Sequence record: PZ386969.1
From: a phage
Direction: 5' to 3' (one strand)
Length of the DNA: 64,000 nucleotides
Shown here: in pieces, positions 27,249 to 27,707 of the stretch
How positions within the stretch are numbered: the stretch's first letter is position 1
Layout: the number at the start of each line of letters is the position of its first letter
Made by a program: the position numbers and the translations under genes
The notes under the pieces: model-generated
Seen by the model: only the letters and a program-made list of their open reading frames with translations
What the model was told of the DNA's origin: nothing
The model's database searches: none

Positions 27249-27707
27249 ATGCCAACCTCCAAATTGTTTGAATCAGAATACACCAATGACATCCCTGTAT
27301 GGACTGGTGTTCAAGACGGTATCACGATTGAGCTGTTTAATCGTGAAGAGACAGGCGCGGAAGAGATCTATGCAGGCGTTGAAGGCACTGATGTTGTCCG
27401 CGCCGCCGTAGCACTTGCTACCTTCCTGGAAGATGCACCGATTGATGGTGTGCCGTTCGAGGCGCACGTAGATCCCAAGGATCCGACCTCTATCATCATT
27501 ACAGTGAATGGGGTGCCATACACTTCGTACAGTATCGAGACGGACGAAGAGGGAAGCGGAGCGCTGTATATTGCCACCGACCTGCAGCTGGAAGACGATG
27601 AGATGGATTATCTGATTCAGAACGGGGTGCTGCCACCGTTTACCGATGAAGAACTGGACACGGAACTGGCTGCTGTCGGGGACGACGAAGACTTCTGGGA
27701 AGAATAA
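27249..27707 (+). CDS. highly acidic hypothetical protein (152 aa)
   Basis: ORF track; strong D/E excess, C-terminal DDEDFWEE. Confidence 0.5.
   Translation: MPTSKLFESEYTNDIPVWTGVQDGITIELFNREETGAEEIYAGVEGTDVVRAAVALATFLEDAPIDGVPFEAHVDPKDPTSIIITVNGVPYTSYSIETDEEGSGALYIATDLQLEDDEMDYLIQNGVLPPFTDEELDTELAAVGDDEDFWEE

What the first reader, a model, noticed from the sequence alone, without database searches (positions are those of the whole stretch)
27249..27707. Strongly acidic protein behind a late promoter: candidate DNA mimic or injected internal protein
The 152-aa product is dominated by Asp/Glu and ends DDEDFWEE, and the gene has its own CCTAAATACCCCC late-promoter-like motif. Acidic late proteins in T4-type and T7-type phages include DNA-mimic anti-restriction proteins and packaged internal proteins.
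Basis: inference. Interest (0 to 1): 0.45.

Follow-up and report, generated by a model that had tools for sequence, protein, structure and literature searches.

The report
Acidic virion protein of Ackermannviridae phage
This is a real, extremely acidic late gene of a ViI-like (Ackermannviridae) phage. Its relatives have already been found in purified phage particles, so it is most likely a packaged protein of still unknown function and not a demonstrated DNA mimic.

Summary
ORF 27249..27707 (+) encodes a 152-aa protein with pI 4.05, 38 Asp/Glu against 4 Lys/Arg, ending DDEDFWEE. It is the most negatively charged ORF in the window and in the whole genome of the closest annotated relative.

It has its own CTAAATACCCC motif 40 nt upstream, a GAGGA ribosome-binding site and a bidirectional terminator. 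This cassette is conserved in nine loci from at least four genera. Genome-wide, the motif sits almost only just upstream of virion genes, so it behaves as the family's late promoter.

The window is an Agtrevirus-like Ackermannviridae phage. The protein is a family-restricted orphan (phrog_3852) with no Pfam, PDB or fold match. Homologues were detected by mass spectrometry in purified virions of LIMEstone1 (ORF174) and Sajous1 (gp115, 31 spectra), and the Vi01 record labels its homologue 'phage associated protein'.

The upstream gene is an ART-PolyVal ADP-ribosyltransferase carrying a T4-type capsid-targeting peptide (MKTFLEYLKE). The acidic protein has only a weaker, Alt-like/protease-site-like N-terminus (S-K-L-F-E).

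Most likely it is a packaged, probably head-internal, protein. A DNA-mimic or anti-restriction role is untested and has no positive support. This is a known 'unknown structural protein' and of moderate interest.

The parts
27209..27219 (+). Late-promoter-like motif CTAAATACCCC of the acidic gene. It overlaps the TAA stop (27210-27212) of the upstream ART gene.
   Evidence: It sits at a near-constant distance (37-40 nt) upstream of the homologous gene in 9 loci from at least four genera. Genome-wide positional enrichment upstream of virion genes has P 3.5e-15. The motif is cited as a family regulatory motif in PMC7283392.
27237..27241 (+). Shine-Dalgarno GAGGA, 7 nt before the ATG.
   Evidence: conserved in relatives.
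27249..27707 (+). CDS for the 152-aa acidic protein (phrog_3852), the homologue of LIMEstone1 ORF174, Vi01_184 and Sajous1 gp115.
27249..27287 (+). Codons 1-13: conserved N-terminal peptide MPTSKLFESEYTN, predicted disordered. M1, S4, L6 and F7 are invariant. L6-F7-E8 is the only (L/I)xE site in the protein. Candidate prohead-protease or targeting peptide.
   Evidence: comparison with T4 N-termini.
27288..27641 (+). Codons 14-131: folded core, predicted as beta-beta-beta-alpha-beta-beta-beta-beta-alpha, with no significant structural neighbour.
27585..27704 (+). Codons 113-152: poly-acidic C-terminal region (16 D/E, 0 K/R). It is predicted disordered from residue 132 and contains the invariant D148-x-W150 (DFW) motif.
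27710..27730 (.). Bidirectional intrinsic terminator hairpin AAAGGGGCGTTAAGCCCCTTT, shared with the convergent gene 27745..28302.
   Evidence: It is conserved in relatives with compensatory stem changes and is annotated as a terminator on both strands in Ag3.
26748..27212 (+). Upstream gene in the same late transcription unit: a 154-aa ART-PolyVal/DUF3990 ADP-ribosyltransferase-like protein with a T4-type capsid-targeting N-terminus, MKTFLEYLKE.
   Evidence: Pfam PF18760, E 2.7e-10, 41.6 bits against a cut-off of 31.2. Its capsid-targeting score is the best of 204 ORFs. It is a virion protein in LIMEstone1 (ORF173) and Sajous1 (gp116).
26714..26723 (+). CTAAATACCC late-promoter-like motif of the ART gene. 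No terminator was predicted between the ART gene and the acidic gene, so the acidic gene is probably served by two nested late transcripts.

Best explanation
The gene encodes a conserved, late-expressed protein that is built into the phage particle, most probably as a head-internal ('ejection') protein.

Transcription (inferred from motif, position and conservation). It starts from the family's gp55-type late promoter CTAAATAcCCC 40 nt upstream of the ATG. It can also read through from the identical promoter of the upstream ART gene. It ends at the bidirectional terminator.

Virion association (shown for homologues). The product is present in CsCl-purified or otherwise purified virions.

Packaging and delivery (inferred). 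The conserved, disordered N-terminal peptide (M-x-x-S-K-L-F-E) carries the protein's only (L/I)xE site. This is the recognition motif of T4-type gp21 prohead proteases, and the phage encodes a gp21 homologue. The peptide would direct or accompany incorporation into the prohead core and be clipped off. The mature protein would then travel into the cell with the DNA, together with the neighbouring ADP-ribosyltransferase, which carries a canonical T4-type capsid-targeting sequence.

Action in the cell (speculative). A folded core followed by an unstructured, phosphate-like poly-acidic tail with an invariant DFW anchor would act as a competitive decoy on a conserved basic or nucleic-acid-binding host or phage protein.
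For: - ORF, charge, RBS, promoter motif and terminator.
- The promoter-RBS-ORF-terminator cassette is conserved in 9 loci from at least four genera, including Erwinia phage Bue1 at 43% protein identity. The terminator stem shows compensatory changes.
- CTAAATA lies upstream of gp22, gp18, gp14, gp6, gp48, VriC and three tailspike or tail-fibre genes; 13 of 18 sites lie within 60 nt of a start (P 3.5e-15).
- Virion mass spectrometry of homologues. LIMEstone1 ORF174 is 16.62 kDa with 12.5% coverage; I matched it exactly to the XF4 orthologue mass and to its 19-aa tryptic peptide. Sajous1 gp115 gave 31 spectra although only 3 tryptic peptides are observable, against 1-4 spectra for most replication proteins. 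Vi01_184 is labelled 'phage associated protein'.
- M1, S4, L6 and F7 are invariant even among members 34-48% identical, although AlphaFold2 predicts residues 1-13 disordered.
- LFE is the only (L/I)xE site in a protein with 21 Glu.
- The same KLFE occurs at the N-terminus of the phage's gp22 scaffold protein, and T4 Alt begins MELITELFDE.
- The phage has a T4-like head module with gp20, gp21, gp22 and gp23.
- A T4-type capsid-targeting peptide is clearly present on the adjacent ART and on other MS-detected virion proteins of the family: MKTFLEYLKE, MKPFIEYFKE and MKGFPDFLKE, against T4 MKTYQEFIAE (PMC8442874).
Against: - The acidic protein's own N-terminus is not a canonical capsid-targeting sequence. 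Its BLOSUM score against the T4 sequence is 14 (about 2 SD above the mean, rank 8 of 204), and its rank is 13 of 204 with a family PSSM.
- No peptide-level data show N-terminal processing. No data place the protein inside the head as opposed to on the tail or capsid surface.
- It was not among the 18 proteins recovered from the ten major gel bands of EspM4VN.
- A strongly acidic protein is electrostatically unusual inside a DNA-filled head. T4 IPII and IPIII are basic, with pI 9.3-9.5.
- It evolves at the rate of core genes (74% identity between Agtrevirus and Kuttervirus, mid-range of 22 orthologue pairs). T4 internal proteins, which act as anti-defence factors, are hypervariable (PMC3012670).
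- Nothing supports any particular target.
Confidence: 0.5

Rival explanations
1. A purely structural or assembly component with no role after ejection. For example, an acidic prohead-core or scaffold-associated protein comparable to T4 gp67, gp68 and the acidic internal peptides. Alternatively, a minor capsid-, neck- or tail-associated protein.
For: - It is a universal core gene of the family: 278 records across every Ackermannviridae lineage represented among the hits.
- It evolves at the rate of core genes.
- It shares KLFE with the N-terminus of the gp22 scaffold.
- The second most acidic ORF in the genome is the gp67-like prohead core protein.
- It gives a mid-range spectral count in virions.
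Against: - The gene lies far from the head and tail modules, as a self-contained promoter-terminator cassette next to a likely injected enzyme.
- There is no fold similarity to any capsid, neck or tail protein in the PDB or BFVD.
- The disordered acidic tail with a conserved DFW looks like a protein-binding element, not a lattice contact.
Confidence: 0.25
2. A DNA-mimic anti-restriction protein of the Ocr/ArdA/Arn kind. Its surface carboxylates would imitate the DNA backbone and titrate type I (or other) restriction enzymes.
For: - Extreme acidity (pI 4.05, 25% D/E), in the range I recall for known mimics.
- Delivery in the virion would place it in the cell before the DNA is attacked.
- From my own knowledge, not tested here: Ackermannviridae carry hypermodified thymidine and face modification-dependent nucleases.
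Against: - No sequence or profile match to any family, including none to Ocr or ArdA models in Pfam.
- Much of the charge sits in a disordered tail, not on a rigid DNA-shaped surface.
- Conservation is core-like, not arms-race-like.
- Known mimics are early gene products, not late ones (general knowledge).
Confidence: 0.1
3. A dedicated partner of the adjacent ADP-ribosyltransferase: an inhibitor or immunity protein that keeps the enzyme silent in the producing cell, or a CesT-like chaperone that keeps it competent for packaging and ejection.
For: - The gene lies immediately downstream of the ART, in the same late transcription unit and even in the same reading frame.
- Small acidic proteins downstream of toxins are often immunity proteins (general knowledge).
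- Both proteins are present in virions.
Against: - The acidic gene occurs in 278 records but the ART in only 222.
- Ag3-type phages have deleted the ART, leaving only its last ~30 nt, yet keep the promoter and a 97% identical acidic protein.
- Erwinia phage Bue1 has no ART at that position, and no Erwinia or Serratia record scored an ART hit anywhere.
- The structural similarity is not significant: kinase lobes score the same.
- The acidic protein gives more spectra than the ART (31 against 10).
Confidence: 0.07
4. Not a true virion component: an abundant late cytoplasmic protein that sticks to particles during purification.
For: - LIMEstone1 detection rests on a single peptide.
- The Sajous1 list also contains replication and lysis proteins at low counts.
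- It was not found in the band-based proteomes of Ag3 or EspM4VN.
Against: - It was detected by mass spectrometry in two genera with different purification schemes, and the Vi01 record labels its homologue 'phage associated protein'.
- It gave 31 spectra from only 3 observable peptides after CsCl banding.
- The band-based studies sampled only 6-10 major bands.
Confidence: 0.05

Closest known systems
[quoted passage not shown]
   Same: - A late gene in a T4-related phage with a gp20/21/22/23 head module.
- A small protein found in purified virions.
- A short N-terminal peptide containing an (L/I)xE protease motif.
- It lies beside another packaged effector.
- It plausibly acts at the moment of DNA entry.
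   Different: - No sequence or fold similarity.
- The N-terminus (MPTSKLFESE) is not the canonical MKTYQEFIAE type, although that type is present on the neighbouring ART.
- It is extremely acidic, whereas T4 IPII and IPIII are basic (pI 9.3-9.5).
- It is a conserved core gene, not a hypervariable one.
- Head location, cleavage and ejection are untested.
T4 Alt (head-packaged ADP-ribosyltransferase)
   Same: - Alt begins MELITELFDE, and the acidic protein has S-K-L-F-E-S-E: both fit [ST]-x-L-F-[DE] within the first 10 residues.
- Both are mildly to strongly acidic virion proteins.
- The neighbouring gene here is itself an ART.
   Different: - The acidic protein has no enzymatic domain.
- Alt is 682 aa.
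- The resemblance is limited to about 5 residues.
T4 gp67/gp68 prohead core proteins and the acidic internal peptides
   Same: - Acidic head-core constituents processed by the gp21 protease (established T4 knowledge).
- The gp67-like protein is the second most acidic ORF of the AV101 genome.
   Different: - The acidic gene is not in the head gene cluster.
- It has a folded 118-residue core.
- No homology was detected.
DNA-mimic anti-restriction proteins (T7 Ocr, ArdA, T4 Arn)
   Same: A small protein with a very low pI and a high D/E content.
   Different: - No match to their Pfam families and no structural similarity.
- Late rather than early expression.
- The charge is concentrated in a disordered tail.
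CesT-family type III secretion chaperones and the SOUL/p22HBP fold
   Same: - They are small acidic proteins encoded next to a translocated effector.
   Different: - The scores are in the noise, since unrelated kinase lobes score equally.
- The gene persists without the effector gene.

Membership tests
T4-type head-internal (ejected) proteins | Present in purified virions | tested here: met
   Shown for homologues only: LIMEstone1 ORF174, Sajous1 gp115 (31 spectra), and the Vi01_184 record label 'phage associated protein'. Orthology and peptide mapping were verified here. The phage of this window itself has not been analysed.
T4-type head-internal (ejected) proteins | An N-terminal capsid-targeting sequence of about 10 residues, ending in Glu and removed by the gp21 prohead protease | tested here: inconclusive
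   The conserved MPTSKLFESE has an LFE site and an Alt-like [ST]xLF[DE] pattern. It ranks only 8th to 13th of 204 N-termini against capsid-targeting models. No cleavage data exist. The adjacent ART meets this feature clearly.
T4-type head-internal (ejected) proteins | Late transcription with the structural genes | tested here: met
   A conserved CTAAATAcCCC lies 40 nt upstream. The motif is positionally tied to virion genes genome-wide. This is sequence inference, with no transcript data.
T4-type head-internal (ejected) proteins | Located inside the capsid and delivered into the host with the DNA | not testable with these tools
   Needs fractionation, osmotic shock or labelled-protein transfer experiments.
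DNA-mimic anti-restriction proteins (Ocr, ArdA, Arn) | Sequence or fold membership in a known mimic family | tested here: not met
   [not shown]
DNA-mimic anti-restriction proteins (Ocr, ArdA, Arn) | Strong net negative charge | tested here: met
   pI 4.05, net charge about -34.
DNA-mimic anti-restriction proteins (Ocr, ArdA, Arn) | A rigid surface whose carboxylates reproduce the phosphate spacing of B-DNA | not testable with these tools
16 of the 38 acidic residues lie in residues 113-152, which are predicted disordered from residue 132.
DNA-mimic anti-restriction proteins (Ocr, ArdA, Arn) | Binds and inhibits a restriction enzyme and protects unmodified DNA | not testable with these tools
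   Requires plating and binding assays.
Cognate immunity protein or chaperone of the adjacent ART | Strict co-occurrence with the ART gene | tested here: not met
   278 records carry the acidic gene and 222 carry the ART. The ART is deleted in Ag3-type phages and absent at that position in Erwinia phage Bue1, and no Erwinia or Serratia record scored an ART hit, while the acidic gene is kept.
CesT-like secretion chaperones | Significant structural similarity to the CesT fold | tested here: inconclusive
   [not shown]
phrog_3852 / Ackermannviridae 'unknown structural protein' family | Full-length profile match and conserved synteny | tested here: met
   phrog_3852 at E 5.4e-81 over residues 1-152. 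The position between the PLP-enzyme/ART genes and the convergent block before the DNA polymerase is conserved.

The most novel reading that the evidence does not exclude
The protein is a new-fold, virion-delivered decoy. It would be ejected with the hypermodified DNA. Using its poly-acidic tail and DFW anchor, it would neutralise a conserved host nucleic-acid-binding defence or repair protein at the instant of entry. It would therefore be a functional analogue of T4 IPI* or of Ocr, but a family-wide core gene and part of a small 'injected effector' cassette with a capsid-targeted ADP-ribosyltransferase.
Probability: 0.2. Interest if true: 0.6.

Novelty: new member of a known kind. Interest (0 to 1): 0.35.

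Why it matters
Ackermannviridae (ViI-like phages such as CBA120, Det7-like Kuttervirus and LIMEstone) are widely used in biocontrol and phage therapy. More than half of their genes, and about a dozen of their virion proteins, have no known function.

This analysis shows three things. The most acidic protein of the genome is a conserved, late, particle-associated protein. It sits beside an ADP-ribosyltransferase that carries a T4-type capsid-targeting peptide. The same peptide marks several other 'unknown structural proteins'. Together these give a concrete, testable list of candidate internal or ejected proteins for this family.

If the acidic protein proves to be an injected inhibitor, it would add a new fold to the anti-defence repertoire. 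If it is an assembly factor, it would show how a T4-like head core has diverged. As it stands, the gene is an already catalogued 'unknown structural protein', so the finding is of moderate interest and not surprising.

Tried and rejected
**Searches with no informative result**
- Pfam, NCBIfam and PADLOC scans of the acidic protein gave no hits.
- A profile search of 1.84 billion representative proteins found only 8 clusters. Seven are the same family or fragments of it. The eighth is a 559-aa, four-fold repeat protein (P0034) matching only profile positions 62-92, which I judge spurious.
- A profile search against PDB sequences gave one chance-level hit, E 0.13.
- AlphaFold2 model against PDB by Foldseek: nothing at E <= 0.001.
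- AlphaFold2 model against BFVD: only its own family.
- The afdb50 library was unavailable.

**The C-terminal DFW motif**
- I looked for a shared C-terminal 'DFW' or acidic-aromatic motif in other proteins of the phage, as would be expected for a clamp- or SSB-type interaction motif. None was found.
- The motif is also not at the extreme C-terminus in some homologues, which argues against an SSB-tip-like mimic.

**Peptide-level evidence for N-terminal processing**
- None was found in the Sajous1 or EspM4VN supplements.
- The ViI proteomics paper (Pickard 2010) is not held in the library.
- No cryo-EM study of an Ackermannviridae virion was found.

**Ideas rejected or not pursued**
- I rejected the idea that the protein is an obligate partner of the ART, because co-occurrence fails.
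- I did not attempt a fused ART+acidic structure prediction.

Full report
**1. What is in the sequence**

The ORF at 27249..27707 (+) is real: ATG to TAA, 152 aa, ending DDEDFWEE.
- Its calculated pI is 4.05. It has 21 Glu + 17 Asp against 2 Lys + 2 Arg, a net charge of about -34.
- The charge is uneven. Residues 113-152 hold 16 acidic and no basic residues.
- It is the most acidic of 87 ORFs in the window.
- It is also the most negatively charged of 204 ORFs in the complete genome of the closest annotated relative: -0.23 per residue, z = -3.8.

The flanking signals are all present.
It overlaps the stop codon of the upstream gene.
- GAGGA lies 7 nt before the ATG.
- A GC-rich hairpin with T-runs on both strands lies 3 nt after the stop (27710-27730).

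**2. Where the window comes from**

Megablast places the region in the Ackermannviridae. It is 98% identical to Enterobacter phage fGh-Ecl02 and Escherichia phage AV101, and 93% identical over the shared part to Shigella phage Ag3.

tBLASTn finds the protein in 278 phage records. All hits checked are Ackermannviridae: Agtrevirus, Limestonevirus, Kuttervirus, Klebsiella- and Serratia-infecting members, and Erwinia phage Bue1. Identities range from 43% to 99%.

It matches phrog_3852 ('unknown function') end to end. Nothing matches in Pfam, NCBIfam or PADLOC. A profile search of 1.84 billion representative proteins found only 8 clusters, essentially the same family. It is a family-restricted orphan.

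**3. The promoter motif**

CTAAATAcCcc is cited as one of two regulatory motifs characteristic of these phages (PMC7283392). I tested its behaviour.
- In the window, CTAAATACCC with up to 1 mismatch occurs 10 times against 2.07 expected.
- In the AV101 genome the raw count of CTAAATA is not enriched (18 against about 21 expected). Its position is: 13 of 18 sites lie within 60 nt upstream of a same-strand ORF start, against a 3.9% background (binomial P 3.5e-15).
- The genes served include the gp22 scaffold, gp18 sheath, gp14, gp6, gp48, VriC, three tailspike or tail-fibre genes, the ART gene and the acidic gene.
- The phage encodes gp55, gp33 and gp45 homologues.

The motif therefore behaves as the family's counterpart of the T4 late promoter TATAAATA.

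The whole cassette (motif, RBS, ORF, terminator) is conserved at the same spacing in nine loci from at least four genera. The terminator stem shows compensatory changes.

A second copy of the motif at 26714 serves the upstream gene. No terminator is predicted between the two genes. The acidic gene is probably transcribed from two nested late promoters.

**4. Published virion proteomics**

*LIMEstone1.* Table 2 of the virion proteome lists ORF173 (17.33 kDa, 11.84% coverage) and ORF174 (16.62 kDa, 12.50% coverage) as 'unknown structural proteins' (PMC3296691).
- The orthologues in XF4, which is the same species, have calculated masses of 17.33 and 16.62 kDa.
- The coverages equal exactly one 18-aa tryptic peptide of the ART and one 19-aa tryptic peptide of the acidic protein (EETGAEEIYAGVEGTDVVR).
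- ORF174 is therefore the homologue of this gene.

*ViI.* That paper states that all 12 unknown structural proteins of LIMEstone1 have structural counterparts in ViI. The Vi01 record labels Vi01_183 and Vi01_184 'phage associated protein'.

*Sajous1.* In CsCl-purified virions, gp115 (the homologue) gave 31 spectra and gp116 (the ART) gave 10 (PMC10892097).
- Only three tryptic peptides of gp115 are of observable size, so 31 spectra is not a trace signal.
- I do not convert spectra to copy numbers. The same table shows they are far from linear.

*Negative results.* The two band-based studies (Ag3, EspM4VN) sampled only 6-10 major bands and did not report the protein.

**5. Is it a head-internal protein?**

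T4 internal proteins enter the prohead through a roughly 10-residue capsid-targeting sequence, MKTYQEFIAE, which is then cut off (PMC8442874, PMC3012670). I read that sequence directly from T4 ipII and ipIII, and read MELITELFDE from T4 alt.

Scoring all 204 N-termini of AV101 against the T4 peptide:
- The gene upstream of the finding is the clear winner: MKTFLEYLKE scores 30, against a mean of -0.95 and SD of 7.5.
- Second is a 192-aa protein, MKPFLQYFKE.
- In Sajous1 the corresponding proteins are gp116 MKTFLEFYRE, gp215 MKPFIEYFKE and gp216 MKGFPDFLKE, with gp214 having a related start. All were detected in virions.

Ackermannviridae therefore have a T4-type targeting peptide, and it marks a set of 'hypothetical' virion proteins.

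The acidic protein itself is less clear.
- MPTSKLFESE scores 14 (rank 8 of 204) against the T4 peptide and ranks 13th with a family PSSM.
- M1, S4, L6 and F7 are invariant even among members only 34-48% identical, although AlphaFold2 predicts residues 1-13 disordered.
- L6-F7-E8 is the only (L/I)xE site in the protein. (L/I)xE is the recognition pattern of the T4 gp21 protease (established T4 knowledge). It fits the LTE sequence at residues 63-65 of gp23 and LRE at residues 8-10 of gp24, read.
- The same KLFE stands at the N-terminus of this phage's gp22 scaffold.
- T4 Alt has T-E-L-F-D-E at the same place.

This is suggestive of processing or targeting, but it is not proof.

**6. Structure**

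AlphaFold2 with a 20-sequence alignment gives a moderately confident core (block pLDDT 60-88 over residues about 14-131, pTM 0.65). The predicted order of elements is beta-beta-beta-alpha-beta-beta-beta-beta-alpha. Residues 1-13 and 132-152 are predicted disordered.
- Foldseek against the PDB and BFVD finds only the family itself.
- No Ocr or ArdA structure was among the listed neighbours.
- The invariant C-terminal D-x-W is followed by 0 to 11 variable residues. It is an internal short motif, not a C-terminal tip.
- No other protein of the phage shares it.

**7. The neighbour and the partner hypothesis**

The upstream 154-aa protein matches ART-PolyVal (PF18760, 41.6 bits against a cut-off of 31.2) and DUF3990. 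ARTs of this kind are proposed to be packaged and injected (PMC5512222, PMC9503650). A dedicated inhibitor or chaperone was therefore worth testing.

Co-occurrence fails.
- The ART is present in 222 records and the acidic protein in 278.
- In Ag3-type phages the ART has been deleted, leaving only its last ~30 nt. The promoter and a 97% identical acidic gene remain.
- Erwinia phage Bue1 has no ART at that position, and no Erwinia or Serratia record scored an ART hit anywhere.

**8. Rate of evolution**

Between AV101 (Agtrevirus-like) and Sajous1 (Kuttervirus) the acidic protein is 74% identical.
- This is in the middle of 22 orthologue pairs: gp55 73%, gp46 72%, SSB 77%, gp47 91%.
- The ART is at 64%.
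- This is unlike the hypervariable T-even internal-protein loci, which are described as diverse defence proteins sharing only the targeting sequence (PMC3012670).
- It argues for a conserved partner or an assembly role.

**9. Verdict**

*Shown:*
- A real, conserved, extremely acidic protein gene.
- Its own conserved late-promoter-like motif and terminator.
- Homologues present in purified virions of two genera by mass spectrometry, plus the Vi01 record label.

*Inferred:*
- Late transcription.
- Head-internal location.
- N-terminal clipping.
- Ejection with the DNA.

*Speculative:*
- Action as a charge decoy.

The 'DNA mimic' reading has only the charge in its favour. The family is already catalogued as an 'unknown structural protein'. 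What this analysis adds is the context: the capsid-targeted ART next door, and the N- and C-terminal linear motifs.

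Noticed in passing
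window 26748-27212 (+), promoter motif at 26714-26723: The upstream 154-aa gene is an ART-PolyVal/DUF3990 ADP-ribosyltransferase-like protein. Its first ten residues (MKTFLEYLKE) closely match the T4 internal-protein capsid-targeting sequence MKTYQEFIAE and give the best score of 204 ORFs. Homologues are virion proteins (LIMEstone1 ORF173, Sajous1 gp116). It also hits the PADLOC candidate family PDC-M13A. It looks like a small, Alt-like packaged ART.
   Followed up: partly
L005 (Sajous1) 26642-29898; AV101 75517-78872 (L012 25517-28872): Several 'hypothetical' proteins detected in Sajous1 virions share the same N-terminal peptide type: gp215 MKPFIEYFKE, gp216 MKGFPDFLKE, gp214 MAIPSFLNFLEE. 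This suggests a definable set of capsid-targeted internal proteins in Ackermannviridae. The gp22 scaffold N-terminus (MKPELQKLFEG) also scores third in the targeting-sequence PSSM.
   Followed up: partly
L004 (Ag3) 2939-3083, compared with window 27165-27248: In Ag3-type phages the ART gene has been deleted. Its last ~30 nt, the CTAAATA motif and the acidic gene are retained, so loss of the ART is secondary.
   Followed up: yes
window 25514-26707 (+): A 397-aa protein with a weak pyridoxal-phosphate enzyme (PALP) match below the Pfam cut-off, phrog_3650. Relatives annotate it as a PLP-dependent enzyme or threonine ammonia-lyase. It may belong to the thymidine hypermodification pathway of ViI-like phages (my recollection, not tested). 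AV101 annotates a shorter ORF here.
   Followed up: no
window 27745-28302 (-): A second acidic ORF (185 aa, pI 4.25, 21% D/E, phrog_4823, unknown function) converges on the same bidirectional terminator. It is 82% identical between AV101 and Sajous1.
   Followed up: no
window 23445-24418 (+): A cluster of four tRNA genes (Met-CAT, Asn-GTT, Tyr-GTA, Ser-GCT). The many short 'ORFs' listed there are artefacts of this RNA region.
   Followed up: yes
L007 (Vi01) 2921-3376; protein P0027: The Vi01 record's Vi01_184 has about 23 residues (IMHRYRARMCPRCRSPCNVLRRR) out of register with all relatives, then returns to frame. This probably reflects a pair of compensating frameshift errors in that early genome record.
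   Followed up: no
window 1969, 8480, 13253, 16666, 20524 (-), 59777 (+): The other CTAAATA sites in the window lie 14-41 nt upstream of large tailspike, baseplate and other virion genes. The only exception, at 1929, lies just inside an ORF start.
   Followed up: yes
protein P0034 (from the representative-protein search): A 559-aa protein made of four near-identical ~140-aa repeats matched profile positions 62-92 (E 6.8e-07). This is probably a repeat-inflated chance match to the '...DP.DPT.IIITVQ' strand.
   Followed up: no
L018 (EspM4VN) 2502-2990: EspM4VN annotates its ART gene (gene_89) as 489 nt, ending 10 nt before the acidic gene. The upstream DNA is nevertheless the same as in relatives, including the stop and promoter motif. 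The annotation, or a frameshift in that record, differs from the rest of the family.
   Followed up: no
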